The notes under the pieces are model-generated. The model ran no database searches. It had not been told where the DNA came from and was given only the letters and a program-made list of their open reading frames with translations. DNA of 64,000 nucleotides from Candidatus Staskawiczbacteria bacterium RIFOXYB1_FULL_38_37 (lineage in GTDB: Bacteria > Patescibacteriota > Minisyncoccia > Minisyncoccales > Staskawiczbacteraceae), in assembly GCA_001822075.1 (NCBI GenBank), contig MHPK01000004.1, positions 71,979-135,978 on the forward strand. The letters are read 5' to 3'. The position numbers and the translations under genes are program-made. Positions 2,212 through 47,972 of the stretch are shown piece after piece; positions within the stretch are counted from its first letter, which is position 1, and the number at the start of each line of letters is the position of its first letter.

Positions 2212-4017
2212 CTAATTTTCTGCAGAAATTATTTTTCTTTTTGCTTCTCTGGCTCTTAAAACTTCTTCTGGAGCTGTAGTTATTATCTGGTCTTCTGTTT
2301 GGCTGGCAACAACAGAAATTGCAACATGTTTTTTACCGGCAAAAAATAATCCTTCTCCTACGGCAGCTTCAAGCAAAAGGTATTTTTCCTGCTCTGTTAA
2401 ATTAAAGGTTTTTTGCACAATATCAATTGTGGCTGGAGACTGCTTCATTAAAAGCTGCAAAGAAGAGTTTGTAACAATTGCCTTTCCATAATCTGATTTC
2501 ATAAAATCAGCAACGTCTTGGGTGATTGTCGTAACCCCAAGCCAGTATTTTCTGCCTCTTTTTGCCAGCCCAAATAAAAATGAAGCCCCGTCTTCTGACT
2601 GCATAAGCCACCATGCCTCGTCAATCACAAGTATTCTCTTTTTTAAGCTTGTTCTAACAATATTCCAAACATACCTCATAATTATATATAAAGCTATTGG
2701 CCTTAAAGATTCTTCCATATCTCTTATTCCAAAAACAACAAGGCTTTTTTCTATTGAAATATTTGAGTGCTGATTAAAAAAATCTGCAAAAGTGCCCTTG
2801 GTGAATTTTTTAATTCTTTTTACCAAAGATTCGGTTCCTGTCATGCTTTCTAAAACTTCTTCAAAGTCAGACATCAAGGGCACATTGTTCTGCCATGTTG
2901 CAGGGTCAGCCTGGGCAGTAATATCTCTTATAGCATAGGTTTCTGTGAGAGCCTCGTCTAAAACACTATCTTCTTCTGCAGTAAGCCCGCCAAGCATAAT
3001 TCTTAAAAGCCCTACCAAGTTAATAATGTTTGAGCGCAAAATGTCTTCTGGGTTGTCATCTGGCCCTGGGGTTGGCAGGTCAAATGGATTTAAATGGTTG
3101 GGCGAGGTAAGTGAAATTTTTAAAAAAGCTCCTCCCACAGAATCAGCCAAAGCCTCATATTCATTTTCAGGGTCAATAATAATTACATCAACCCCCTGCA
3201 TTAAATATCTTAAAATTTCCAATTTTATAGCATATGATTTTCCCGAGCCGGCTTTTGCAAAAACAACTGAATTAGCGTTTTCCAAACTAAATCTGTCAAA
3301 CAACACCAAAGAATTGTTATGCCGGTTTATGCCGTATAAAATACCTTCGTTTGAGCTTAAGTCAAAAGACATAAAGGGAAACGAGGTTGAAAGGGGCTCT
3401 GTGTCCATTGGGGTGTGCACATCCAGTAAATCTAATCCATACGGGTTGCAGGAAATAAATCCTTCTTTTTGCTTGAACAAAGCAGGCTTTATATAAATTA
3501 GCCTTGATTCAAAAATTGACCTCAAGGTAAGTTCTGTGTCTCTTAATTCTTTTTCTGAATTTTCATAAACTGTTATATAAAGCCCGAACCTGAACATTTT
3601 TTCCTGGGCTGTCATAAGCTTATCCCTTAAGTTTTCAATATCCCTATAAGCTGTTTCAAGCGCAGGGTCTCTTACAAGCCCTTTTTCTTCTCTTTCTAAA
3701 ATTTCAGAAGACACCTCAGTAATTTTTTTTCTTAATTTTTTTAGAATAAGCTCTGAAGAAATTGGGTGCACAAAAAACGATATGTCCATTGGGCTGCTTA
3801 AGTCAATTACAGGCGTCAGCCAGCCTGTGTTTAAATATCTGGGGTATGAAAAAACAAAAAAAGATTTTGCGAACCTTTCGCCCAGTTTTATGTGGTCTTG
3901 GGTAATTCCAATATACGGGGGAGCAATAATGTCTTTTACATCAAAAGATTCCTCTTCAAATATCTTGTCTTCAATCTCGTTTTCTTTTTTCCCGAATAAA
4001 TTGTCTAAAAATTTCAT
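2212..4017 (-). CDS. virB4: VirB4/TrbE/PrgJ-type type IV secretion ATPase
   Basis: 601-aa ORF; Walker A AKAGSGKS, Walker B ILVIDEAWWL; stop lies 13 nt upstream of the pilin-fusion gene start. Confidence 0.9.
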   Translation of the reverse strand: MKFLDNLFGKKENEIEDKIFEEESFDVKDIIAPPYIGITQDHIKLGERFAKSFFVFSYPRYLNTGWLTPVIDLSSPMDISFFVHPISSELILKKLRKKITEVSSEILEREEKGLVRDPALETAYRDIENLRDKLMTAQEKMFRFGLYITVYENSEKELRDTELTLRSIFESRLIYIKPALFKQKEGFISCNPYGLDLLDVHTPMDTEPLSTSFPFMSFDLSSNEGILYGINRHNNSLVLFDRFSLENANSVVFAKAGSGKSYAIKLEILRYLMQGVDVIIIDPENEYEALADSVGGAFLKISLTSPNHLNPFDLPTPGPDDNPEDILRSNIINLVGLLRIMLGGLTAEEDSVLDEALTETYAIRDITAQADPATWQNNVPLMSDFEEVLESMTGTESLVKRIKKFTKGTFADFFNQHSNISIEKSLVVFGIRDMEESLRPIALYIIMRYVWNIVRTSLKKRILVIDEAWWLMQSEDGASFLFGLAKRGRKYWLGVTTITQDVADFMKSDYGKAIVTNSSLQLLMKQSPATIDIVQKTFNLTEQEKYLLLEAAVGEGLFFAGKKHVAISVVASQTEDQIITTAPEEVLRAREAKRKIISAEN

Positions 4018-4123
4018 AACAGAAATTTTAAATTATAAATTTTAAATGAAATTATAATGTTTAAATGTTTTAAAATTTAAGAATTTAGTTTTGAATTAAA
4101 ATTTAAAATTTGTTATTTAAAAT

Positions 4124-4789
4124 TTATTTTAGGAGTTCTGGCAATATTTCTGGATAATATCCCACCTCTGCCTGATCCGGATGGTGTATGGCCCAAAAAA
4201 GCTCTATAAGCTCTGGCGTTGTAAGGGGCACAGCCTCCAGCCCGCACCTTCTTAAACCCATTGCAACATATTCCATTCTTTGCCATATTTGAGTTTTGCA
4301 TCTTTGGAACTTGTCGTCATCTAATTTTTGATTTTGTTCTTTTTTACCTGAAAACTGGCTTAACAAATTGAAATTTTTTACAGCTGACCCCACGCCAAAA
4401 ATTTCCATTAAATTATAGGGAACTACCGCATAAAAGTTTTTTGTCATAACCACATCCCCCACAACCATATTTTTAATAAATTCCCTGTAAGAAGAAGTTT
4501 GTTTTCTCAGCAGTTCGTTCGTTTGTTTTTCTTCTAAATCTTTTATGCTGTCTAAATATGGAGTAATGTTTATATTTCTTGACTGAATGACAATTTGGCA
4601 GGAAAAATCCAAAGAATTCAAAAAGCTTTGAAAAGCATATACAATTGCCGTCTGCTCTTCTTCAGATTTTAACGCAAAATTTATTGAGGAAACCATTAAT
4701 ATTCCCCTTATAGAGCTATTTTTTAAAATCAAAACCCCCTCTCTTATATCCTGCACTTCCAAAAATGCTTGTGTTGCGCTCTCGGTCAT
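4124..4789 (-). CDS. Hypothetical T4SS-associated protein (resembles the non-ATPase N-terminal domain of Gram-positive-type VirB4)
   Basis: 221-aa ORF co-oriented with virB4. The N-terminus (FLEVQDIREGVLILKNSSIRGILMVSSINFALKSEEEQ) looks like VirB4 N-domain openings. Assigned by pattern memory only. Confidence 0.55.
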   Translation of the reverse strand: MTESATQAFLEVQDIREGVLILKNSSIRGILMVSSINFALKSEEEQTAIVYAFQSFLNSLDFSCQIVIQSRNINITPYLDSIKDLEEKQTNELLRKQTSSYREFIKNMVVGDVVMTKNFYAVVPYNLMEIFGVGSAVKNFNLLSQFSGKKEQNQKLDDDKFQRCKTQIWQRMEYVAMGLRRCGLEAVPLTTPELIELFWAIHHPDQAEVGYYPEILPELLK

Positions 4790-4857
4790 AATTTTACTAA
4801 TTATAAATTTTAAATTCTAAATTTTAATTGAAAAAACTAATTTTAAAATGTTTAAAT

Positions 4858-5229
4858 TTAATCAGAATTTTTATCCACAGAAGAAATTACTATTTTGGAA
4901 AAAATAAGCGTTAACTCTTGAGCTTCGTTCCAAAGTTTTCTGCACATGTCTGTTTTCTCTGGGTTAGCTTTGGCAATCATTCTTAACCAGTGTTTAGTTT
5001 CTCTTGTTTCTTTTTTGCAGATGCATATTTTATTTCTAAAGTCTTTTTTAGAGCTAGCCCCGTTTGCCTCCATATAATTTGCTCCAACACTCGTTGAAGA
5101 CCTTATTATCTGGCTTACGAGAGGACGGTTTATCTCGTTTTTTTCTAATGTTTTAATAAAGTCAATCATATCTTCGCCAAACCGAGCAGTCCTTTCTTCT
5201 AAGTCATATTTACAATTTGTTTTGTCCAT
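4858..5229 (-). CDS. Four-helix-bundle protein (23S rRNA intervening-sequence protein family)
   Basis: 123 aa with the family signature SSTSVGANYMEANGASSKKDFRNKICICKKETRETKHWL; flanked by inverted AT-rich repeats at 4797-4835 and 5243-5280. Confidence 0.85.
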   Translation of the reverse strand: MDKTNCKYDLEERTARFGEDMIDFIKTLEKNEINRPLVSQIIRSSTSVGANYMEANGASSKKDFRNKICICKKETRETKHWLRMIAKANPEKTDMCRKLWNEAQELTLIFSKIVISSVDKNSD

Positions 5230-5281
5230 TTAATCATTTAAATTTCATTTAAAATTGAAAATTTAAAATTTAAAATTAACT

Positions 5282-5689: not shown

Positions 5690-5857
5690 TTTTAAATAAT
5701 TTTAAATTATAAATTTTAATTGAAAAACCTAATTTTTAAATGTTTTAAACATTTTAACATTTAAAATTGATTTAAAATTTAAAATTTGTTATTTAAAATT
5801 TTATTCTATTATTATACCATGCAGAAAAAAGTAGTGATAACAAAAGTTTTCAACACC

Positions 5858-12915: not shown

Positions 12916-13770
12916 TTACCATTTTGAAGGGGTGTTTGCAAGGTTTTTCCAATCTTCAATAGACAGAGTTTCTGCGCGTTGTTTGGGGTCAATGTTATTT
13001 TTTATTAGTATAGCATCCACTTGTTTTTTATCGATTTTTAAAATTTTTGATAAGTTACCAGCAAGTTGTTTTCTTGGATGAGAAAATCCGGCTTTAACAA
13101 TTTTAAAAAATAAAACTGGGTCAATTTTATTTTTATTCTCCCGTGGAATAATTTTTATTATTGCAGAATCAACTTTTGGAGAAGGCCAAAAACAATTTTT
13201 TGAAACATAAGAAATAATTTTAACATCTGCGTAAAATTGCACAGACACAGCCAGCAAGCTCATATCAGGAGGCTTTGAGCATATTCTTTGAGCAACTTCT
13301 TTTTGAACCATCAAAATTATTTCTGAAGGCTTGTTATCAGATTCTAAAAATTTTCTTATTAAGGGCGAGGTAAGGTAGTACGGTATGTTAGAGACGACTT
13401 TATAATTTGAAAATTGAGAAATTAAGTTTTGATTTAAAATTGAAAATTTAAAATTTAAAATTCTGAGAATATCGCCGTTTATAATTTCTATATTTTTATA
13501 ATCTTTTAATGTTTCACCCAAAATTTTTATCATTATTTTGTCTTTTTCCACGGCAATCACCTTTTTTGCATTTTTTGCAAGCTCCTGCGTTAAGGTGCCA
13601 ATTCCAGGCCCTACCTCCAGCACAACATCATTTTTATTTAAATCAGCAGCGCCAATAATTTTTTTAAGGACATTTTTATCAATTAAAAAATTTTGGCCAA
13701 GTCCTTTAGACGGCCGGGCGCTATATTTTGATAAAATTTCTTTAATTGTTGTTGGAGAAGTTAAATCCAT
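12916..13770 (-). CDS. rsmA: 16S rRNA (adenine1518/1519-N6)-dimethyltransferase
   Basis: 284 aa; SAM motif LEVGPGIGTLT and NIPYYLTSP. Contains an AT-rich repeat insertion at 13432-13462. Confidence 0.92.
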   Translation of the reverse strand: MDLTSPTTIKEILSKYSARPSKGLGQNFLIDKNVLKKIIGAADLNKNDVVLEVGPGIGTLTQELAKNAKKVIAVEKDKIMIKILGETLKDYKNIEIINGDILRILNFKFSILNQNLISQFSNYKVVSNIPYYLTSPLIRKFLESDNKPSEIILMVQKEVAQRICSKPPDMSLLAVSVQFYADVKIISYVSKNCFWPSPKVDSAIIKIIPRENKNKIDPVLFFKIVKAGFSHPRKQLAGNLSKILKIDKKQVDAILIKNNIDPKQRAETLSIEDWKNLANTPSKW

Positions 13771-21558: not shown

Positions 21559-21596
21559 ATTCGCTAATTTTTAATTTTAAATTTAAAATTTTAATT

Positions 21597-21736
21597 GAAT
21601 GCCCTAATCTCAAATGTTTAAAACATTCTATCATTTAGATTTCATTTAAAATTTAAAATTTGTTATGAATGCCCTAATCTCAAATGTTTAAAACATTCTA
21701 TCATTTAGATTTCATTTAAAATTTAAAATTTGTTAT
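21597..21736. repeat. Perfect tandem duplication (2 x 70 bp) of an AT-rich hairpin element
   Basis: 21597-21666 is identical to 21667-21736 (GAATGCCCTAATCTCAAATGTTTAAAACATTCTATCATTTAGATTTCATTTAAAATTTAAAATTTGTTAT). Confidence 0.95.
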
Positions 21737-21744
21737 TTAAAATT

Positions 21745-21775
21745 TACAATAAAAGGCTTTTAGCCTTTTATTGTA
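21745..21775 (-). terminator. 13-bp AT-rich hairpin downstream of tRNA-Lys
   Basis: TACAATAAAAGGC-TTTTA-GCCTTTTATTGTA. Confidence 0.45.
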
Positions 21776-27268: not shown

Positions 27269-28189
27269 ATGTCAAAAGAGAGTGGAGTAATTGAAATAAC
27301 TAATAAAAAGTATCCGAAAGCGCTGAAACAGGCGCTTTCGGTTTTGGTGCCAAGCTCTGGCCCGAAAAAATTGTATTACAAAGGAAATTGGTCAGATGAT
27401 ATTTTCAAAAATTGCCTGGCAGTTGTTGGCTCCAGGCATTTAACTTATTATGGCAGAAAGGCCACAGAGCAAATTGTAACAGAATGCGCAGCAGCTGGCA
27501 TTACAATAGTTTCAGGTTTTATGTATGGCGGAGATGAAGCGGCTCATTTAGCTGCTGTAAAATGCGGAGGAAAAACAATTGCTGTTATGCCTTGCGGCAT
27601 AGACTTAATACACCCCGCAAATCAAAAAAATCTATATCAGGAAATTTTAAACAACAACGGCCTTGTAGTTTCAGAATACGAAGGCTCCGCCCAGCCTCAA
27701 AATTTTACCTATGTGCAAAGGGACCGGCTTGTGGCAGGGCTTTCAAAAGCAGTTTTGGTCACGGAGGCTGCTTTAAATTCCGGCTCTTTGATTACGGCCA
27801 GCTATGCCAAAAAATATAACAGAAAAGTTTTTGCTGTGCCAGGGCAAATTACTTCAGAAGTTTCAAGAGGAACTTTAAAATTGATAAAAGAGGGAGCTGA
27901 ACCTGTGGCTGACGCAAGCGATATTTTAAGCTATTTTAAAGTTTTGGTGAATCAAGGAGTTAATCAAGTTGATCGAGCCCCGAGCTCACAAAATTTTGTG
28001 AGCTCGGGGCTCACAAAAACTGGCTCGTTAGAGCAAAAAATAATTGCCCAGTTAAAAAGAGAGGCTTTAAGAGCAGATGAAATGGCAAGAATTTTTAATG
28101 TGCCTGTTGCCCAACTTGGCACAACGTTGTCTTTAATGCAGCTTAAAGGCCAAATTTTACAGGATTTTGGAAAATATTACATCAGTTAA
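27269..28189 (+). CDS. dprA: DNA-processing protein DprA
   Basis: 306 aa; AVVGSRHLTYYGRKAT..GGDEAAH..VSEYEG Rossmann-type DprA core. The linker contains the 38-bp REP palindrome. Confidence 0.88.
   Translation: MSKESGVIEITNKKYPKALKQALSVLVPSSGPKKLYYKGNWSDDIFKNCLAVVGSRHLTYYGRKATEQIVTECAAAGITIVSGFMYGGDEAAHLAAVKCGGKTIAVMPCGIDLIHPANQKNLYQEILNNNGLVVSEYEGSAQPQNFTYVQRDRLVAGLSKAVLVTEAALNSGSLITASYAKKYNRKVFAVPGQITSEVSRGTLKLIKEGAEPVADASDILSYFKVLVNQGVNQVDRAPSSQNFVSSGLTKTGSLEQKIIAQLKREALRADEMARIFNVPVAQLGTTLSLMQLKGQILQDFGKYYIS
27975..28012. repeat. 38-bp perfect palindrome (head-to-head REP pair) inside dprA
   Basis: GAGCCCCGAGCTCACAAAA|TTTTGTGAGCTCGGGGCTC; the same GTGAGC-N5-GCTCAC unit that flanks the RAYT gene. 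Confidence 0.9.
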
Positions 28190-28281: not shown

Positions 28282-28458
28282 ATGGAAAAAGATTTCTATA
28301 CAATAAAAGAATTGGCAGATATTCTGAAAATTAGCAAACAGTCTGTGCTAAAGCGCGTACACCGAGGAAACATAGGGTCGCAAAAAATCGGCCGAGATTT
28401 CATAGTTTTTAAAAAGGACATTGATTTAAAAAAGTTAGCCGTCGAAATAAAAAATTAA
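28282..28458 (+). CDS. Excisionase-family/MerR-like helix-turn-helix protein (58 aa, below the ORF-track cutoff)
   Basis: Hand translation: MEKDFYTIKELADILKISKQSVLKRVHRGNIGSQKIGRDFIVFKKDIDLKKLAVEIKN*. This is the HTH_17/excisionase pattern (lt.kEaA..L.vs..tv.r....G.i...kiGr.w.i). Confidence 0.65.
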   Translation: MEKDFYTIKELADILKISKQSVLKRVHRGNIGSQKIGRDFIVFKKDIDLKKLAVEIKN

Positions 28459-28490
28459 AATTAGCGTTGGTTGTTACATGACAACCTGAA
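28447..28490. repeat. 44-bp cassette-end repeat with hairpin, copy 2
   Basis: ATAAAAAATTAAAATTAGCGTTGGTTGTTACATGACAACCTGAA; supplies the last codons IKN* of the HTH gene. Confidence 0.8.
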
Positions 28491-28525: not shown

Positions 28526-28852
28526 ATGTTTTGGAAAAATTGGCCATATTGGCTAAAAGGAGGAATAATTTTATTTCTTTATTCATTGTCGGCTGTCGTA
28601 ATGTTCGCTAATTTAAATCATGCTCTTCCTGTTTTTGTTTCAGTAATATTTTTACCAGTTTTCATCCCGGCATGGTTTTGTCTAACTTGGTTGTGCGGGA
28701 TAGGCGGATTGAGCCATGGAGTTTTGGCTTCTTGTTATACATCTGGGATTTGGATTTTTATATATTCTTTGCCTGTAATAATTTTTTTCTTCGTATTCGG
28801 TGCAATTATTGGTTTAATTTATGGAAAAATAAAAAATATTATTAAGAAATGA
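28526..28852 (+). CDS. Small 3-4 TM membrane protein (tandem paralog A)
   Basis: 108 aa; the C-terminus FGAIIGLIYGKIKNIIKK matches the next gene. Confidence 0.6.
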   Translation: MFWKNWPYWLKGGIILFLYSLSAVVMFANLNHALPVFVSVIFLPVFIPAWFCLTWLCGIGGLSHGVLASCYTSGIWIFIYSLPVIIFFFVFGAIIGLIYGKIKNIIKK

Positions 28853-28856
28853 AAAT

Positions 28857-29177
28857 ATGCAAAAATTTTTAAAATTTTCGTTATATGGTTTTTGTTTCGG
28901 AATTGTATACTCGATTTTTTCTATGGGGATTTTTTTGTTGTGTAAATTTACTGACATAGGTCAAACATTTGAATTGAGGATACATAGCTGTAATGTCAAT
29001 TTATTATTAAAACCATTTGCAATCTTTTACCAATCACTTGCCAGAGGAAAAGGATTATTTTTTACCGCCACTAATTTTGTTTTAGTTGGAGAGATCATTA
29101 TTATTCTTCTGACATTTACTATTGTGGGTACAATTATTGGTTTAATTTATGGAAAAATTAAACCAATAAAAAATTAA
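28857..29177 (+). CDS. Small membrane protein (tandem paralog B)
   Basis: 106 aa; C-terminus VGTIIGLIYGKIKPIKN. Confidence 0.6.
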   Translation: MQKFLKFSLYGFCFGIVYSIFSMGIFLLCKFTDIGQTFELRIHSCNVNLLLKPFAIFYQSLARGKGLFFTATNFVLVGEIIIILLTFTIVGTIIGLIYGKIKPIKN

Positions 29178-29210
29178 AATTAGCCTTGGTTGTCCTACGA
29201 CAACCTGAAT
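29167..29210. repeat. 44-bp cassette-end repeat with hairpin, copy 3
   Basis: ATAAAAAATTAAAATTAGCCTTGGTTGTCCTACGACAACCTGAA; supplies IKN* of paralog B. Confidence 0.8.
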
Positions 29211-32440: not shown

Positions 32441-33316
32441 ATGCCTGAATTGCCGGAAGTTGAAACCACAGTCAAAGGCTTAAAATCAAAGGTCCTGAAC
32501 AGGGCCTTTGTTGATGTGTGGTCAGACTGGGAAAAAACAATTAAAAAACCAAAATTATTTAAAGATTTTAAAAAGCATATAAAAGGCAAAAAAATATTAA
32601 AAATTTGGCGTCGCGCCAAAAATATAATTTTTGACTTGTCGGGCGGATATTCCCTTTTAGTGCACCAAAAAATGACAGGACATCTTCTCTATGGAACATG
32701 GAACATAAAACATGGAACATGGGCGCCAGCTGGAAACAAAAATTTAGAAGACCCGATGAATAAATTTTTGCATTTAATATTTTTTTTGAATGATGGAAAA
32801 ATGCTTGCCTTGTCGGATTTAAGGAAATTCGCCAAAGTTGAATTACAAAAAACTGATGAATTATTAAATTCAAAAGAATTTAAAAATTTGGGGCCCGAAC
32901 CATTAGAAAAAGATTTTACTTTTAAGAAATTTAAATCCTGCCTCGCCGCTAGGCGAGGCAGGATAAAGCAGGTTTTAATGGACCCTTACATAATAGCTGG
33001 CATAGGAAACATTTATTCTTCTGAAGCATTGTGGCAGGCAAAAATACATCCTGAAAAAAGTGTTGCAAAATTAAGTGAAAAAGAGTTAAAATTGCTTTAT
33101 AATGCAATTAAAAAGGTTTTGACCATTTCTGTTAAATTGGGTGGAGAAAGTTTTTCTGATTATAGAAAAGTTGACGGAAGCAAGGGGAATTTTGACGCAG
33201 AAAGAAAAGCGTATAAAAGAGAAGGCCAAAAATGCCAAAGATGCAAAACCCTAATTAAACGTTTAAAATTTGCAGGCAGAAGCGCCTTTTTCTGCCCCAA
33301 CTGCCAAAAATTGTGA
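32441..33316 (+). CDS. mutM: Formamidopyrimidine-DNA glycosylase
   Basis: 291 aa; N-terminal MPELPEVET and C-terminal zinc finger CQRCKTLIKRLKFAGRSAFFCPNCQK. The TGA stop lies inside a REP hairpin. Confidence 0.9.
   Translation: MPELPEVETTVKGLKSKVLNRAFVDVWSDWEKTIKKPKLFKDFKKHIKGKKILKIWRRAKNIIFDLSGGYSLLVHQKMTGHLLYGTWNIKHGTWAPAGNKNLEDPMNKFLHLIFFLNDGKMLALSDLRKFAKVELQKTDELLNSKEFKNLGPEPLEKDFTFKKFKSCLAARRGRIKQVLMDPYIIAGIGNIYSSEALWQAKIHPEKSVAKLSEKELKLLYNAIKKVLTISVKLGGESFSDYRKVDGSKGNFDAERKAYKREGQKCQRCKTLIKRLKFAGRSAFFCPNCQKL
32935..32964. repeat. 30-bp GC palindrome (13-bp perfect arms) inside mutM
   Basis: ATCCTGCCTCGCC-GCTA-GGCGAGGCAGGAT; encodes ..SCLAARRGRI.. Confidence 0.9.
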
Positions 33317-34146
33317 GCCCCGAGCTCACAAGAGTTTGTAAAACTAAAAAATGACTATATTAGACCATGCCGCGGAGAAAAGAACAATTTGTAACCGGCG
33401 AGATTTATCATATTGTAATACGAGCGATTGATAATAACTTGATTTTTAAGGACTTAAACGATTATTATCGCGGCATTTTTTCTATTTACGAGTTTAATAA
33501 CGCCATCCCTGTGAATATTTTTAATCGACGATTAGCCAGGACCGCTGAAAAGAAAAAAGAAAAATTTTGTGAGCTCGGGGCTCACAAAATTTTAGTAGAA
33601 GATGCAAGAGATAAATTTATTAAAGTTTTAGCTTTTTGCTTTATGCCAAACCACGTTCATCTTCTGACAAAACAAATAAAAGACGGGGGAATATCCAAAT
33701 TTATGCAAAAAGTTGGAGGCGGATACGGAGGATATTTTAACAGAAAATATCAGAGGAAGGGTCATGTTTTTCAAAACGAATTTAAATCGGTTCATGTGGA
33801 TACAGATAATCAGCTTATAGCGACAGCTTCGTATATTTTTACAAACCCTATTGCACTTATTGAACCCAGTTGGAAGGAAAAAGGAATTCAAAAACATTCT
33901 GTAAAGGAGGTCTCAAAGTTTTTGGAAGACTATAAATGGTCAAGTTATCAAGACTGCATTGGCGTTAAAAATTTCCCTTCTGTTACAGAAAGAGAATTTC
34001 TTTTAGAAACAATGGGCGGAATAAATGGCTTGAATGGAGTTGTAAAAGATTGGATAGAGCATAAAAAAGACATTGCAAAATACACAGACTTATTTTTAGA
34101 GTAAATCTTGTGAGCTCGGAGCTCACAAGATTTTGTGAGCTCACAA
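33313..34146 (+). mobile_element. REP-RAYT unit: Y1 transposase gene bracketed by GTGAGC-N5-GCTCAC hairpins
   Basis: REP copies at 33313-33329 (loop CCCGA), 33561-33593 (inside the gene), 34104-34132 (loop TCGGA, opposite orientation) and 34133-34146 (loop-less). Confidence 0.75.
33367..34104 (+). CDS. REP-associated tyrosine transposase (IS200/IS605-type Y1 HUH transposase-like)
   Basis: 245 aa; HUH motif MPNHVHLL and catalytic Tyr context ASYIFTNP. Confidence 0.8.
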   Translation: MPRRKEQFVTGEIYHIVIRAIDNNLIFKDLNDYYRGIFSIYEFNNAIPVNIFNRRLARTAEKKKEKFCELGAHKILVEDARDKFIKVLAFCFMPNHVHLLTKQIKDGGISKFMQKVGGGYGGYFNRKYQRKGHVFQNEFKSVHVDTDNQLIATASYIFTNPIALIEPSWKEKGIQKHSVKEVSKFLEDYKWSSYQDCIGVKNFPSVTEREFLLETMGGINGLNGVVKDWIEHKKDIAKYTDLFLE

Positions 34147-34326: not shown

Positions 34327-35277
34327 ATGATTATATTTTTGTACGGAGAAGATTCTTATAGATCCAAGGAAAAATTAAATGAAATAATAGGGCACTATAA
34401 AAAAGTCCACAAAAGCGGACTGAATTTGATTTTTATTGATGCTATAGAAAAAACGTTTAATGATTTTTTTGACAGCCTTAAAATTGTTTCAATGTTTGCA
34501 GAAAAAAAACTGGTGGTTGTGAAAAATGTATTTTCCGCCAAAGGCGGACCAGCCCCGGGCTGGCAGGAAGAATTTTTAAAAGAAGTTAATAATTTTAAAA
34601 ATATAAAAGATATTATTGTTATTTATGAAAATGATAAAGTTGATGAGAGGCCAAAACTTTTTAAACAGCTAAAAACTCATGCAAAATGCCAGGAGTTTAA
34701 TTTGCTTCAGCCAGCCATGCTGAAAAAGTGGATAGACAAAGAATTTGAAAAGTACGGCTCAAAAATTGATCTGCCAGCAAAAGATCTGTTATCAGCATAT
34801 ACTGGAGATGATTTATGGAAAATGGCAAATGAAATTAAAAAGCTGGCAAATTATAAAAGGGAAGGCATAGTAAAAAAAGAAGATGTTGAGCTTCACATTA
34901 GACCTAAAATTGAAAACGATATTTTTAAAACAATTGATGCTATTTCGCAGAAAAATAAAGGCCAGGCAGTAGGGCTGCTTCACAAGCATTTAGATAACGG
35001 AGACGCTCCCTTGTATATGCTTTCTATGATAGCTTATCAATTCAAAAATCTTTTGATTATAAAAGAACTGGCTGAAAAAGAAGCTGGCTATCAGGCGATT
35101 GTAAAAAAAAGCGGGCTTCACCCGTTTGTAGTTCAAAAGAATTATTATTTGTGCCAGCGCTTTACATCAAGCCAGTTAAAAAAAATCTACCAGAAAATTT
35201 TTCAGGCAGATTCAGATATTAAAACAGGCAAGATAGATCCGGAGCTGGCTTTGGATATGCTGGTGGCTGAAATTTAA
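34327..35277 (+). CDS. holA: DNA polymerase III delta subunit
   Basis: Start trimmed to ATG 34327 (MIIFLYGEDSYRSKEKLNEI), because the upstream extension is REP-derived sequence. Typical HolA length and N-terminus. Confidence 0.8.
   Translation: MIIFLYGEDSYRSKEKLNEIIGHYKKVHKSGLNLIFIDAIEKTFNDFFDSLKIVSMFAEKKLVVVKNVFSAKGGPAPGWQEEFLKEVNNFKNIKDIIVIYENDKVDERPKLFKQLKTHAKCQEFNLLQPAMLKKWIDKEFEKYGSKIDLPAKDLLSAYTGDDLWKMANEIKKLANYKREGIVKKEDVELHIRPKIENDIFKTIDAISQKNKGQAVGLLHKHLDNGDAPLYMLSMIAYQFKNLLIIKELAEKEAGYQAIVKKSGLHPFVVQKNYYLCQRFTSSQLKKIYQKIFQADSDIKTGKIDPELALDMLVAEI
34534..34563. repeat. Exactly 30-nt (10-codon) double GC hairpin inside holA
   Basis: TCCGCC-AAA-GGCGGA followed by CCAGCCCCGGGCTGG; starts on a codon boundary and encodes SAKGGPAPGW. 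Confidence 0.9.
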
Positions 35278-41308: not shown

Positions 41309-41992
41309 ATGAAAAACCAAAAAGACCATGCCTCCCGGCAGGCAGGCATTTCAACATTAATTGGCATAATGGTTATTGTCGCTGTGACAGTTTTAACCTT
41401 CGGCGGAGTTTTTGCATATCAATATTTTTCGACACCAAAAGAAAAAAATCAGCAGCAGATTGAGGACCAAACCGCTGGCTGGAAAACATATAAAAATAAT
41501 GAATATGGTTTTGAAATAAAATATCCAGCTGATTTTAAAATAAACGAAAATTATTACTATGATCTTTCTGCAGGAACAAGCAATAGCGGTTCATTAAATC
41601 TTCCTGGAGTTTCGTTCTCGATTCCGGTTTCTTACACAGACGGAACAAATTTATCTCCTGACACAAAAATATCTGTTGAAATGAATGCGAAGTCAAAAAA
41701 TTGTCTGGTTACGGAATTTTTAAATTCTCCAAACCCCGTTATAGATATCACAGATGAAATTATAAATAAAATTATCTTTAATAGAGGAACAACGGGCGAT
41801 GCAGGCATGGGAAACTATTATAACGAAACTGTTTATAGTACGAAAGGTTTAACTCCTTGCTATGGAATCCGTTTGTTCGTACACAGCACATCTTTAGGAA
41901 ATTATGAACCAGAGACAAGGGTGGCGTATGATTCGGAAAAATTACAATCAGTTTTTAAACAAATTATTTCTACTTTTAAATTTATAAAATAA
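41309..41992 (+). CDS. Membrane-anchored secreted hypothetical protein
   Basis: 227 aa; N-terminal TM helix ISTLIGIMVIVAVTVLTFGGVFAY, then AGWKTYKNNEYGFEIKYPADF. A GC hairpin at 41329-41349 encodes ASRQAGI. Confidence 0.65.
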   Translation: MKNQKDHASRQAGISTLIGIMVIVAVTVLTFGGVFAYQYFSTPKEKNQQQIEDQTAGWKTYKNNEYGFEIKYPADFKINENYYYDLSAGTSNSGSLNLPGVSFSIPVSYTDGTNLSPDTKISVEMNAKSKNCLVTEFLNSPNPVIDITDEIINKIIFNRGTTGDAGMGNYYNETVYSTKGLTPCYGIRLFVHSTSLGNYEPETRVAYDSEKLQSVFKQIISTFKFIK

Positions 41993-46602: not shown

Positions 46603-47286
46603 ATGGCTTCAAGCAAAGAGACAATTATTATTTCGCTGGGCGGGAGCTTGGTGGCTCCCAATGACATTGATATAGGGTTTTTGAAAAATTTTAAGCATTC
46701 TTTAAAAAAATATATTGGATCAAGAAGATTTTTTATTTTAGTAGGAGGAGGAAAAATATGCAGAAATTACCAGAAAGCGCTTTTGGAGTTTGGAGCTAAA
46801 TCAGCTGACAGAGATTGGATTGGCATTAATGTTTCAAAATTAAATGCAGAAGTTGTAAAACAATTATTTTCTGGATATTCTTATGAAAAAATTATTACAG
46901 ACCCGAATAAAAAAGTAAAAACAAATAAAAATATAATAGTGGGAGCTGGCTGGAAGCCGGGCTGGTCAACAGATTACGATGCTGTTTTAATGGCAAAAAA
47001 TAATAAAGCAGATACTATTATAAATCTTACAAACATAGATTATGTTTATGATAAAAATCCCAGCCAGTTTTCTGATGCAAAACCTTTAAAAGAAATTGAT
47101 TGGAAAAGCTTTAAACATATTGTGGGGGATAAATGGACTCCCGGGCTTTCAATGCCTTTTGACCCAAAAGCCTCAAAACTTGCTGAAAAGTTTAAATTGA
47201 AAGTAGCTATTATAAACGGAAAATATTTAGATCGGCTGGAAGATTTTTTAAACAACAAGCCGTTTGTTGGAACTATAATTAGTTAA
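46603..47286 (+). CDS. pyrH: UMP kinase, archaeal-type
   Basis: 227 aa; amino-acid-kinase fold (IIISLGGSLVAP..FFILVGGGKICRNY..GWKPGWSTDYDAVLMA). Confidence 0.8.
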   Translation: MASSKETIIISLGGSLVAPNDIDIGFLKNFKHSLKKYIGSRRFFILVGGGKICRNYQKALLEFGAKSADRDWIGINVSKLNAEVVKQLFSGYSYEKIITDPNKKVKTNKNIIVGAGWKPGWSTDYDAVLMAKNNKADTIINLTNIDYVYDKNPSQFSDAKPLKEIDWKSFKHIVGDKWTPGLSMPFDPKASKLAEKFKLKVAIINGKYLDRLEDFLNNKPFVGTIIS

Positions 47287-47295
47287 AATAAGATT

Positions 47296-47766: not shown

Positions 47767-47886
47767 ATGCCCAAACAAGAAATTAAAATTTTAATAGAGA
47801 AAGCAATCAAAAATTTGATAAAACAGGAGGAGTATAAAGGTATCTCTATTGCAGATATTTTAGTTGAACGCCCCGATGAAAAGTAG
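47767..47886 (+). pseudogene. Truncated argS 5' fragment (39 codons)
   Basis: MPKQEIKILIEKAIKNLIKQEEYKGISIADILVERPDEK*. Compare the real ArgRS N-terminus MKEEIKKLIEKAIKDLQKEKKL. Confidence 0.75.
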
Positions 47887-47966
47887 CCGTTATCAACGGA
47901 AAATATTTAGACCGGCTGGAATATTTTTTAAACAACAAGCTGTTCATCGGTACAACCATTAATTAA
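47883..47966 (+). pseudogene. Duplicated pyrH 3' fragment (27 codons plus stop)
   Basis: VAVINGKYLDRLEYFLNNKLFIGTTIN*; 70/84 nt identical to 47203-47286. Confidence 0.8.
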
Positions 47967-47972
47967 ATTTGT

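What the first reader, a model, noticed from the sequence alone, without database searches (positions are those of the whole stretch)
33313..34146. REP-RAYT system whose REP hairpins invade coding sequence, including the transposase gene itself
33367-34104 encodes a Y1 HUH transposase of the IS200/RAYT type (HUH PNHVHLL; Tyr in ASYIFTNP). It is bracketed by one hairpin family, GTGAGC-N5-GCTCAC. The left copy is 33313-33329 (loop CCCGA). The right copy is 34104-34132 (loop TCGGA, opposite orientation), followed by a loop-less copy at 34133-34146. A further copy lies inside the transposase ORF (33561-33593, coding KFCELGAHKIL). A head-to-head pair forms a 38-bp perfect palindrome in dprA (27975-28012). 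The left copy supplies the TGA stop of mutM (33314-33316), and the right copy begins at the RAYT stop codon. A RAYT flanked by inverted REPs is the established architecture in E. coli and Pseudomonas. The unusual points here are the in-frame intragenic REPs and a RAYT hit by its own REP.
Basis: partly seen in the sequence, partly recalled or inferred. Interest (0 to 1): 0.7.

Follow-up and report, generated by a model that had tools for sequence, protein, structure and literature searches.

The report
Y1 nuclease gene carrying its own hairpin
A domesticated hairpin-cutting (Y1 HUH) gene of a tiny CPR bacterium is bracketed by copies of one short DNA hairpin and carries a third copy in frame inside itself; this three-hairpin layout is shared by most relatives across the group, so it is a new variant of the known REP/RAYT kind and not a one-off accident.

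Summary
The ORF at 33367-34104 is a Y1 HUH protein whose best structural match is E. coli TnpA-REP (RAYT). The hairpin GTGAGC-N5-GCTCAC lies 38 nt upstream, in frame inside the gene, and just after the stop. A head-to-head pair sits in frame in dprA.

The interpretation needs three corrections.
- **The internal copy is a family trait, not a chance self-hit.** In 45 of 62 Patescibacteria homologues the most stable hairpin of the whole gene lies at nt 180-239. In 47 of 61 that sequence recurs in the gene's own flanks. Outer stems differ between species while a 13-nt core, GAGN-WCGGR-NCTC, is kept.
- **The gene is vertically inherited and the system is atypical.** It sits between mutM and holA in at least 13 species. 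The repeat has no GT[AG]G foot, the protein scores below NCBI's RAYT cut-off, and I found only two hairpin loci in about 80 kb.
- **Both "unusual points" have precedent.** Quentin et al. 2018 described in-frame REPs inside subclass 2.4 tnpA-REP genes. Di Nocera et al. 2013 and the Rickettsia RPE work described in-frame REPs in other genes.

Verdict: a real, previously undescribed CPR variant of a known kind, of moderate interest.

The parts
27269..28189 (+). dprA, the host gene of the intragenic hairpin doublet
   Evidence: ORF. TIGR00732 dprA scores 227 bits against a cut-off of 191. In 22 homologues the linker between the DprA domain and the C-terminal winged helix varies in length and sequence.
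27975..28012 (.). Perfect 38-bp palindrome made of two hairpin units head to head (REPIN-like doublet), in frame in the dprA linker. The left unit has loop CCCGA and lacks the outer GT. The right unit, GTGAGC-TCGGG-GCTCAC, is at 27998-28014.
   Evidence: Sequence and motif hits. 27990-28018 is 29/29 identical to the internal copy at 33561-33589 (family D13). A related metagenome contig (L086) has the doublet at the same dprA site. Another species carries GTTAAG-TCGGA-CTTAAC at that site (L089).
32441..33316 (+). fpg/mutM, the conserved upstream neighbour; its TGA stop (33314-33316) lies inside the upstream hairpin
   Evidence: ORF. TIGR00577 fpg scores 270.9 bits. The order mutM-Y1-holA is found in at least 13 related loci.
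33311..33331 (.). Upstream hairpin (U): TTGTGAGC-CCCGA-GCTCACAA, ending 35 nt before the Y1 start codon (38 nt from the 6-bp stem core), with its loop inverted relative to the downstream copy
33367..34104 (+). Y1 HUH (TnpA-Y1 class 2, RAYT-like) gene of 245 aa
   Evidence: Pfam Y1_Tnp, E 2.7e-11. The AF2 model has pLDDT 77.5. The best PDB fold match is 4er8_A, E. coli TnpA-REP, with E 6e-7. There are over 1,800 homologues, mostly full length, and 335 clusters at 50% identity with E<=1e-30.
33646..33666 (+). HUH motif PNHVHLL (residues 94-100)
   Evidence: N95, H96, H98 and L99 are invariant in alignment A1.
33832..33834 (+). Codon of the presumed catalytic Tyr156, in YIFTNP (class 2 signature Y---NP)
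   Evidence: Y156, N160 and P161 are invariant. The Y---NP signature of class 2 is given in PMC6006769.
33561..33593 (.). Internal hairpin (I): AAAATTTTGTGAGC-TCGGG-GCTCACAAAATTTT, in frame, encoding KFCELGAHKIL (residues 66-76)
   Evidence: The peptide falls in the only long internal low-confidence loop of the model (residues 65-79, pLDDT below 50). The position is conserved in homologues.
34104..34132 (.). Downstream hairpin (D): AATCTTGTGAGC-TCGGA-GCTCACAAGATT, starting at the last base of the TAA stop
34133..34146 (.). Loop-less derivative TTGTGAGCTCACAA, next to the downstream hairpin
34327..35277 (+). holA-like gene, the conserved downstream neighbour (probable start MIIFLYGEDSYR)
   Evidence: ORF. 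tblastn synteny in related loci.

Best explanation
This is a REPtron-like locus of a domesticated, vertically inherited class-2 Y1 HUH endonuclease. The enzyme is RAYT-like and the family is typical of Staskawiczbacteria and other Patescibacteria.

**The cognate element.** It is a short perfect hairpin. It has a conserved core, GAGN-WCGGR-NCTC (inner stem plus loop), and an outer stem that differs between species. One copy lies upstream of the gene. One lies in frame in a disordered loop between an extra helix and the strand that leads into the HUH motif. One lies just after the stop. The upstream and downstream copies are usually in inverted orientation.

**Inferred mechanism.**
- The enzyme binds the hairpin when the DNA is single-stranded. 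It cuts and rejoins there through Tyr156 and the HUH-bound metal, as E. coli TnpA-REP does in vitro.
- This copying or replacement, or gene conversion helped by it, keeps all copies in one genome identical while outer stems drift between species.
- It occasionally seeds new copies nearby.

**Why copies end up in genes.** These genomes have almost no intergenic space. Two of the three reading frames of the hairpin are open on both strands. Surviving copies therefore often sit in frame in tolerant protein linkers (dprA, the enzyme's own loop, RecG, RNase HII, TsaC). The third frame supplies a TGA, which serves here as the mutM stop.

**Shown and inferred.** Shown: the sequences, positions, covariation, synteny, fold and conserved catalytic residues. 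Inferred: enzymatic activity on these hairpins, the way copies are homogenised, and any benefit to the host.
For: **Identity of the protein.**
- It matches Pfam Y1_Tnp.
- HUH, Y156 and NP are invariant in 29 homologues.
- The best PDB fold match is 4er8_A, TnpA-REP bound to a REP hairpin (E 6.2e-7, TM 0.70 on the target). IS608 and ISDra2 TnpA score about 7e-4.
- The best PDB sequence match with the family profile is also 4er8.

**Three-hairpin layout is family-wide.**
- 42 of 62 genes have a perfect GC-rich hairpin centred at nt 200-252, and 40 of those lie at 200-228.
- Without any hairpin criterion, the most stable 40-nt window of the whole gene lies at nt 180-239 in 45 of 62 genes. Mean MFE there is about -9.1 to -9.4 kcal/mol, against about -2 to -4.7 elsewhere.
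- A 17-mer from the linker matches at least 16/17 in the gene's own upstream flank in 37 of 61 genes, in its own downstream flank in 39 of 61, in either in 47 of 61, and in both in 29 of 61. Between loci the rate is 1.3-1.7%.

**Stems covary and the core is fixed.**
- 10 of 12 stem pairs change on both sides. The covariation score is 0.71 against 0.19 in shuffles (0 of 500 reach it).
- Pairs G9-C21 and A10-T20, and loop bases C14 and G16, are invariant.
- The core motif is found in 44 of 92 fetched loci, mostly at the upstream, internal and downstream positions.

**The constraint is on nucleic acid, not peptide.** All three reading frames are used (20, 15 and 7 genes) and both orientations occur. 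The encoded peptide is a low-confidence loop.

**Domesticated, not a hopping insertion sequence.**
- The order mutM-Y1-holA is kept in at least 13 loci, with Y1 identities to the window protein from 53% to 80%, while stems differ.
- Paralogues within one genome are divergent, and those examined carry their own hairpins.

**Flanking copies are inverted** in 15 of 18 informative loci.

**Copying rather than independent selection.** In L008 the upstream and internal copies share the same imperfect left arm, while the downstream copy is perfect.

**Dispersal.**
- The dprA doublet is 29/29 identical to the internal copy.
- The exact hairpin occurs at 7 further sites in metagenome contigs, 6 of them inside ORFs of at least 182 aa.
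- Core hits outside Y1 loci number 37 in 871 kb, against about 4 in shuffled sequence.
Against: - No biochemical evidence exists for this family.
- NCBIfam's RAYT equivalog scores 39.6 bits, below its cut-off of 80.
- There is no GT[AG]G guide at the hairpin foot, so the recognition and cleavage logic of E. coli TnpA-REP cannot simply be transferred.
- Copy number is very low. About 80 kb of this genome holds only the Y1 locus and one doublet 5.4 kb away. The exact hairpin occurs in only 9 metagenome contigs. Activity as a disperser is therefore weak or local.
- Homogenisation could be ordinary short-range gene conversion with no role for the enzyme.
- In one genome the hairpin at the dprA site does not match that genome's Y1 hairpin (L090 against L008).
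- About a quarter of the genes lack a recognisable internal hairpin.
Confidence: 0.72

Rival explanations
1. The internal hairpin is a selected cis-regulatory element of the Y1 gene. The enzyme would bind it in single-stranded DNA or in its own mRNA, or the hairpin would pause or attenuate transcription or translation, and this would hold expression of a potentially dangerous nuclease low. On this view the hairpin is not a tolerated passenger copy. This reading can coexist with the main explanation.
For: - The internal copy is at least as persistent as the flanking ones. It is present in 45 of 62 genes, against own-flank matches upstream in 37 of 61 and downstream in 39 of 61.
- Its position is nearly fixed, with centres at nt 200-228 in 40 of 42 genes.
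- Some genes keep a strong internal hairpin without flanking copies, for example L014, the first gene of L021, and L026.
- It is the most stable structure in the gene.
Against: - Loop orientation relative to transcription flips freely. About 22 genes have a G-rich loop on the coding strand and about 12 have a C-rich one (my tally). This argues against recognition of a specific RNA loop.
- It is not scored as a plus-strand terminator; only the minus strand looks terminator-like.
- About a quarter of the genes lack it.
- No expression data exist.
Confidence: 0.25
2. The hairpins are host structural or regulatory palindromes, such as terminators, mRNA stabilisers or protein-binding sites. They would be kept identical by ordinary local gene conversion or template switching, and the Y1 protein would play no catalytic part.
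For: - The upstream and downstream copies sit at gene ends, and two copies score as terminator-like on the minus strand.
- Copies cluster within a few kb of each other, as short-range conversion would predict.
- Hairpins at the same dprA and TsaC sites in different species have different stems. In-situ evolution that preserves the palindrome could produce this.
Against: - The same conserved core accompanies this one gene family across many species and paralogues, and paralogues examined within one genome carry their own outer stems.
- Flanking copies are inverted in 15 of 18 loci, as in REPtrons.
- The catalytic residues of the enzyme are invariant.
- Copies lie inside coding regions, where a terminator would be harmful.
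Confidence: 0.1
3. The locus is an active IS200/IS605-type insertion sequence whose left and right ends are the flanking hairpins.
For: - The protein has the Y1 fold and the gene has hairpins near both ends.
- Some genomes hold 2 to 5 copies of the family.
Against: - The chromosomal position between mutM and holA is conserved, with Y1 identities to the window protein from 53% to 80%.
- Paralogues are divergent rather than near-identical.
- The tyrosine motif is Y---NP, not the Y---Q of IS200 transposases.
- The flanking hairpins are inverted. My recollection is that IS608 ends lie in direct orientation on one strand.
- There is only one copy in this window.
Confidence: 0.04
4. The internal copy is a one-off insertion in this genome: a RAYT accidentally hit by its own REP.
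For: The copy is 29/29 identical to the dprA copy, which is compatible with recent copying.
Against: The same position carries a hairpin in 45 of 62 homologues from many species. Outer stems differ between species and match each gene's own flanks.
Confidence: 0.03

Closest known systems
REPtron of E. coli: TnpA-REP (RAYT, subclass 2.2) with REP/BIME (Nunvar 2010 PMC2817692; Ton-Hoang 2012 PMC3333891; Messing 2012 PMC3479197, PDB 4ER8; Corneloup 2021 PMC8266576)
   Same: - A single Y1 HUH gene flanked by its cognate hairpins in inverted orientation.
- Low copy number of the gene and vertical inheritance.
- Hairpins coevolve with the enzyme.
- It is the best structural match for this protein.
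   Different: - There is no GT[AG]G foot and no bulge. The conserved part here is the loop plus inner stem, GAGN-WCGGR-NCTC.
- A handful of copies were seen in the sequence examined, not the high copy numbers described for REPs.
- The protein has an extra segment of about 35 aa before the HUH strand and a C-terminal tail of about 80 aa.
- NCBIfam's RAYT model scores below its cut-off.
- A third hairpin lies inside the gene.
TnpA-Y1 subclass 2.4 (Bertels Group 4) with REPs inserted in frame inside tnpA-REP (Quentin et al. 2018, PMC6006769)
   Same: - The enzyme's own gene carries its cognate REP in frame, and this predominates across a subclass.
- The insertion lies in a peripheral region of the protein.
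- The flanking repeats have low genomic frequency (Bertels 2017).
   Different: [quoted passage not shown] Here the site is fixed and lies before the HuH motif, at nt 200-228.
- Subclass 2.4 REPs are long or "double-foot" GT[AG]G REPs.
- Subclass 2.4 proteins have a median of 194 aa, a WQ motif and YIxNNP, and occur mainly in Cyanobacteria and Bacteroidetes.
- This protein has 245 aa, FQ, YIFTNP and WSSY, and occurs in Patescibacteria.
TnpA-Y1 subclass 2.1 / TIRYT (Di Nocera 2013 PMC3733652; Quentin 2018 Table 1)
   Same: The key motifs match: NHVH, FQ and Y..xNP, a length near 238 aa, and a C-terminal tail with an SS motif (here YKWSSY).
   Different: - Subclass 2.1 was reported to have no REP-like hairpins and to be flanked by terminal inverted repeats (GGGGWSAS).
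- Its distal tail resembles an HTH (Bac_DnaA_C), which is not detected here.
- Membership was judged from motifs only, not tested with the authors' profiles.
Rickettsia palindromic elements (RPE), as cited in PMC3733652
   Same: Palindromic repeats inserted in frame in genes that likely still encode functional proteins.
   Different: From my own knowledge, RPEs are much longer (about 100-150 bp) and have no known dedicated Y1 enzyme next to them. Here the unit is 17-33 bp and is tied to a Y1 gene.
IS200/IS605 transposase TnpA (IS608, ISDra2)
   Same: The HUH/Y1 fold and small hairpins near the ends of the gene unit. Recognition of these hairpins in single-stranded DNA is established for IS608.
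   Different: - The tyrosine motif there is Y---Q.
- Those elements occur as many near-identical mobile copies, often with tnpB.
- The present gene is syntenic and its paralogues are divergent.

Membership tests
Y1 HUH endonuclease superfamily (Pfam PF01797 Y1_Tnp) | Profile match above the gathering score | tested here: met
   44.1 bits against a cut-off of 23, E 2.7e-11. All 29 aligned homologues match.
Y1 HUH endonuclease superfamily (Pfam PF01797 Y1_Tnp) | HUH metal-binding motif and catalytic tyrosine are conserved | tested here: met
   PNHVHLL and YIFTNP. H96, H98 and Y156 are invariant.
TnpA-Y1 class 2 (TnpA-REP/RAYT sensu lato; Quentin 2018) | Tyrosine motif of the form Y---NP, not the Y---Q of IS200 transposases | tested here: met
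   YIFTNP, with N160 and P161 invariant. The criterion comes from PMC6006769.
TnpA-Y1 class 2 (TnpA-REP/RAYT sensu lato; Quentin 2018) | Low copy number, divergent paralogues and vertical inheritance | tested here: met
   One copy in the window. The order mutM-Y1-holA holds in at least 13 loci. Paralogues within one genome (e.g. L003, L006, L007, L022) differ in identity to the query (59-71%) and, where examined, carry different hairpins.
TnpA-Y1 class 2 (TnpA-REP/RAYT sensu lato; Quentin 2018) | Fold closest to the solved TnpA-REP structure | tested here: met
   4er8_A ranks first, E 6.2e-7, TM 0.70 on the target. The model has pLDDT 77.5.
Canonical REP/RAYT (REPtron) | Gene flanked by cognate hairpins in inverted orientation | tested here: met
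   In the window the upstream loop is CCCGA and the downstream loop is TCGGA. The arrangement is inverted in 15 of 18 informative loci. Both flanks carry the gene's own hairpin in 29 of 61 genes.
Canonical REP/RAYT (REPtron) | GT[AG]G tetranucleotide at the 5' foot of the hairpin | tested here: not met
   Feet differ from locus to locus. The conserved positions are the inner stem and loop, GAGN-WCGGR-NCTC.
Canonical REP/RAYT (REPtron) | Same repeat dispersed at high copy number (above 100 per genome in Nunvar 2010), mostly between genes | tested here: not met
   Two loci in about 80 kb of this genome. Nine metagenome contigs hold the exact hairpin. Core hits outside Y1 loci run at about 1 per 24 kb, which is 37 observed against about 4 by chance. 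Many copies lie inside genes. The whole genome was not available.
Canonical REP/RAYT (REPtron) | NCBIfam NF047646 REP_Tyr_transpos equivalog score above its cut-off | tested here: not met
   39.6 bits against a cut-off of 80.
Canonical REP/RAYT (REPtron) | Enzyme cleaves and rejoins its cognate single-stranded hairpin | not testable with these tools
   Needs biochemistry. It has been shown only for E. coli, S. maltophilia and Marinomonas enzymes (PMC8266576).
Subclass 2.4 (REP inside tnpA-REP) | [quoted passage not shown] | tested here: not met
   An in-frame hairpin is present, but it encodes residues 66-76, upstream of HuH at residues 96-98.
Subclass 2.1 / TIRYT | Motifs NHVH, FQ and Y..xNP, about 238 aa, tail with SS motif | tested here: met
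   PNHVH, HVFQ, YIFTNP, YKWSSY and 245 aa, compared with Table 1 of PMC6006769. This is a motif comparison only.
Subclass 2.1 / TIRYT | No REP-like hairpins; flanked by terminal inverted repeats; distal HTH-like tail | tested here: not met
   Hairpins flank and enter the gene. No Bac_DnaA_C or HTH Pfam hit appears even at E up to 1.
IS200/IS605 insertion sequence | Multiple near-identical mobile copies, Y---Q motif, often tnpB | tested here: not met
   No tnpB-like ORF lies next to the gene.

The most novel reading that the evidence does not exclude
The three hairpins form one functional unit, and the in-frame internal copy is an obligatory cis site of the system. The enzyme would act on a hairpin inside its own gene, in single-stranded DNA or in mRNA, either to throttle its own production or to seed and repair the other copies. 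These CPR loci would then be self-referential nuclease-substrate modules in which a coding sequence doubles as the enzyme's substrate. They would have been maintained in this way across a large part of the Patescibacteria.
Probability: 0.2. Interest if true: 0.75.

Novelty: new variant of a known kind. Interest (0 to 1): 0.55.

Why it matters
**REP/RAYT biology.** How REP/RAYT systems persist, and what they do for the host, are open questions. This locus offers a minimal natural version in very small genomes. It has one enzyme, three copies of its substrate at fixed places within 1 kb, and a few satellites.

**A ready-made comparative series.** The locus sits at an orthologous position in many species. 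It therefore shows how an enzyme and its hairpin coevolve and how copies are kept identical. The conserved 13-nt core set against the free outer stem gives a direct prediction of what the protein reads.

**Protein evolution in CPR.** In-frame hairpin copies turn up in CPR proteins such as DprA, RecG, RNase HII and TsaC. They are a possible source of the extra loops seen in those proteins.

**Annotation.** These short GC-rich palindromes inside genes of an AT-rich genome should not be mistaken for terminators or assembly errors. A stop codon can be donated by a repeat, as in mutM here.

Tried and rejected
- **Genome-wide count for the source genome.** Extending the window by look-ups added 16.4 kb and no new copy. 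Enrichment in this genome therefore remains untested beyond about 80 kb.\n- **\"Master copy\" idea.** I asked whether dispersed copies resemble the internal copy more than the upstream or downstream copy. They do not. The tally was internal 5, upstream 4, downstream 3, and the rest ties.\n- **Does the dprA-site hairpin always match the Y1 hairpin of the same genome?** It does in the window. It does not in the one other genome I could pair, where the dprA site is a decayed palindrome (L090 against L008). L089 had no Y1 gene within 10 kb.\n- **Clean empty-site comparison.** RNase HII and TsaC with and without the window-type hairpin differ by only +4 aa, not by the full unit. The \"empty\" TsaC turned out to carry its own hairpin at the same place. 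The inserted unit and any target duplication could therefore not be defined.\n- **Sequence search of the PDB.** The single protein found nothing relevant. The family profile gave only a marginal 4er8 hit, E 0.08. The fold search was needed.\n- **Domain search for the C-terminal 80 aa.** No Pfam hit.\n- **Terminator reading.** None of the three hairpins scores as a plus-strand terminator.\n- **Peptide-level selection on the hairpin-coded segment.** Rejected, because three frames and two orientations are in use.\n- **Restriction-site or uptake-sequence reading of GAGCTC.** Rejected, because outer stems differ between species and copies are few.\n- **Literature.** Searches for a CPR/Patescibacteria REP or RAYT description found none in the held library. 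The first of these searches was poorly specified and uninformative.


Full report
**1.

The window is AT-rich, at 36% G+C. The motif GTGAGC-N5-GCTCAC occurs exactly four times, at 27998, 33313, 33569 and 34110. Shuffles give 0.05. Reading the sequence confirms every detail of the finding.

- The upstream unit is TTGTGAGC-CCCGA-GCTCACAA at 33311-33331. Its TGA closes the fpg/mutM ORF 32441-33316.
- The internal unit is a 14-bp perfect stem with loop TCGGG at 33561-33593. It encodes KFCELGAHKIL.
- The downstream unit at 34104-34132 has loop TCGGA and begins at the last base of the stop codon.
- A loop-less TTGTGAGCTCACAA follows at 34133-34146.
- A perfect 38-bp palindrome at 27975-28012 is formed by two units head to head. 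It lies in frame in the dprA linker.

The ORF at 33367-34104 matches Pfam Y1_Tnp with E 2.7e-11. The source is Candidatus Staskawiczbacteria RIFOXYC1_FULL_37, a CPR (Patescibacteria) bacterium, identified by a 100% protein match.

**2. The protein**

There are more than 1,800 homologues, and the listed ones are nearly all full length at about 245 aa and from Patescibacteria. A profile search of 1.84 billion representatives found 335 clusters at E<=1e-30.

- In 29 aligned members N95, H96, H98, Y156, N160 and P161 are invariant.
- The motifs NHVH, FQ, YIFTNP and WSSY, and the length, resemble subclass 2.1 in Table 1 of Quentin et al. 2018 (PMC6006769). The Y---NP signature places the protein in their class 2.
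- An AlphaFold2 model reaches pLDDT 77.5.
- Its best match among solved structures is 4er8_A, E. coli TnpA-REP bound to a REP hairpin (E 6.2e-7). IS608 and ISDra2 transposases score about 7e-4.
- NCBIfam's REP_Tyr_transpos equivalog scores 39.6 bits, below its cut-off of 80.
- No Pfam domain is found in the C-terminal 80 residues.
- Residues 65-79, which the hairpin encodes, form the only long internal stretch with pLDDT below 50. They make a loop between an extra helix (51-67) and the strand (85-92) that leads into the HUH motif.

**3. The internal hairpin is a family trait**

I fetched 79 loci encoding relatives at 49-80% identity from species-representative genomes.

- In 42 of 62 genes with a clear start, the linker holds a perfect GC-rich hairpin centred at nt 200-252. 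In 40 of those 42 the centre lies at nt 200-228.
- A test with no hairpin criterion agrees. The most stable 40-nt window of the whole gene lies at nt 180-239 in 45 of 62 genes. Mean MFE there is about -9.1 to -9.4 kcal/mol, against about -2 to -4.7 elsewhere.
- Stems differ from locus to locus: GTGAGC, GGGGGAC, CCGAGC, CGGAGG, AGAGAC, ACGAGGT and others.
- A 17-mer from the linker recurs at 16/17 or better in the gene's own upstream flank in 37 of 61 genes, in its own downstream flank in 39 of 61, in either in 47 of 61, and in both in 29 of 61. Between loci the rate is 1.3-1.7%, and those cases are related hairpins.
- The upstream copy lies 24-123 nt before the start, and the downstream copy lies from -2 to +62 nt around the stop.
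- Upstream and downstream loops are inverted relative to each other in 15 of 18 informative loci, as in a REPtron. The internal copy takes either orientation.

**4. What is conserved in the hairpin**

I oriented the 5-nt-loop hairpins by their loops and compared them.

- The loop is WCGGG.
- The third and fourth pairs from the loop are invariant (A-T and G-C).
- The outer pairs take all four Watson-Crick types.
- In total 10 of 12 pairs change on both sides. The covariation score is 0.71 against 0.19 in shuffles, and 0 of 500 shuffles reach it.
- One caveat applies. The six inner pairs were selected to pair; the outer six were not.

The 3-nt and 7-nt loops fit the same scheme, as CCGGG and N-TCGGR-N. 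The core GAGN-WCGGR-NCTC is found in 44 of the 92 loci held, mostly at the three expected positions. In the window it occurs only at the known copies, apart from one 1-mismatch hit at 41607.

All three reading frames are used by the internal hairpin, in 20, 15 and 7 genes. The constraint is therefore on the nucleic acid and not on the peptide. For the window's hairpin, two frames are open on both strands and the third contains TGA. This explains both the in-frame survivors and the mutM stop.

**5. The gene is domesticated, not a hopping element**

- The gene lies between mutM and holA in at least 13 loci (L001-L004, L008, L011, L016, L019, L021, L026, L029, L036, L046). Their Y1 identities to the window protein range from 53% to 80%.
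- Hairpin stems nevertheless differ among these orthologous loci. The three copies have therefore changed together in place.
- Some genomes hold two to five divergent paralogues. Those examined each carry their own hairpin, for example the two genes in L021 and in L041.
- In L008 the upstream and internal copies share the same imperfect left arm, while the downstream copy is perfect. This points to copying between sites and away from independent selection for pairing.

**6. Dispersed copies**

- In the window plus 16.4 kb of added flank from the same strain, the only other site is the dprA doublet 5.4 kb upstream. It is 29/29 identical to the internal copy.
- A scan of the metagenome collection for the exact hairpin found 9 contigs.
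- Two of them are Y1 loci with all three copies.
- One is dprA with the doublet at the same site.
- Five are single or double copies in frame in long ORFs, which I recognise as RecG-, RNase HII-, TsaC-, NagZ- and phosphoesterase-like.
- One follows a mutM stop.
- In other species the dprA linker and TsaC carry hairpins at the same sites with other outer stems and the same loop. Examples are GTTAAG-TCGGA-CTTAAC and GCACG-GTCGGAG-CGTGC.
- Outside the Y1 loci, core hits run at about 1 per 24 kb in the fetched flanks. That is 37 hits against about 4 in shuffled sequence.

The family is therefore real and enriched, but of low copy number.

**7. Comparison with what is known**

- A Y1 gene flanked by inverted cognate hairpins is the REPtron of Nunvar 2010 and Ton-Hoang 2012.
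- Quentin et al. [quoted passage not shown]
- Di Nocera et al. 2013 described intragenic REPs, many of them in DNA repair and replication genes, and recalled the in-frame Rickettsia RPEs.
- Bertels et al. 2017 found low-frequency flanking repeats for Groups 1 and 4.

Four things differ here:

- The lineage: no CPR or Patescibacteria REP/RAYT paper was found in the held library.
- The fixed site before the HUH motif, in a protein that looks like subclass 2.1, which was reported to lack REPs.
- The absence of a GT[AG]G foot, with conservation in the loop and inner stem instead.
- The tight three-copy unit that evolves in concert at an orthologous chromosomal position.

**8. Mechanism**

The most likely reading, at confidence about 0.7, has three parts.

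- The enzyme recognises the conserved loop and inner stem of the hairpin in single-stranded DNA.
- It cleaves and rejoins there.
- This activity, or gene conversion aided by it, keeps the copies identical and occasionally seeds nearby copies, which survive mainly in tolerant protein linkers.

The steps shown are the anatomy, covariation, synteny, fold and catalytic residues. The steps inferred are catalysis on these hairpins and the way copies are homogenised.

A regulatory role for the internal copy is possible. I give it about 0.2-0.25. The free flipping of loop orientation speaks against a specific RNA signal. No "master copy" signal was found.

**9. Verdict**

This is a new variant of a known kind, of moderate interest.

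Noticed in passing
window 4025-4125, 4809-4909, 5178-5278, 5701-5801, 13406-13462, 21575-21745: A second, unrelated repeat family. The units are AT-rich and intergenic, 50-100 nt long, with phased A/T tracts (ATTTAAAATTTAAAATTTGTTATTTAAAATT). Several lie between short minus-strand ORFs next to a VirB4/TraG-like ATPase gene at 2212-4017.
   Followed up: partly
L091 (same strain, extends about 7.8 kb beyond window coordinate 1): dnaA-dnaN and rnpA-yidC-jag lie 5-7 kb before the start of the window. The window therefore begins next to the probable replication origin, and its plus strand should be the lagging-strand template. The hairpin loops show no consistent orientation with respect to it.
   Followed up: partly
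dprA homologues, alignment A2 columns 54-76 (corresponds to window about 27420): Other Staskawiczbacteria DprA proteins have a second variable insertion spot after YYKGNW. One has a tandem EGTCPEPAEGTCPEPAEG. These look like further in-frame repeat insertions.
   Followed up: no
window 28446-28490 and 29165-29209: A 45-nt direct repeat, 89% identical, containing a hairpin of the form GGTTGT-N4-ACAACC. One copy lies upstream of the small membrane ORF 28526-28852 and the other overlaps the end of the ORF 28857-29177.
   Followed up: no
L085 (metagenome contig, 958-978): A mutM-like gene end is followed by one copy of the window-type hairpin and then a different gene start, with no Y1 gene in the 100 nt that remain. 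This may be a relative that lost the Y1 gene and kept one hairpin.
   Followed up: no
L059 5198 (765 nt into its Y1 gene); L084 1388-1440: Some relatives carry additional or partial hairpin copies. L059 has a second in-frame copy near the 3' end of its Y1 gene. The RecG-like ORF of L084 has half-copies next to full copies. The loop-less unit at window 34133-34146 is comparable.
   Followed up: no
window 47200-47287 and 47880-47967: An 88-nt direct repeat, 84% identical, spaced 680 nt apart. It suggests two tandem paralogous genes (D12).
   Followed up: no
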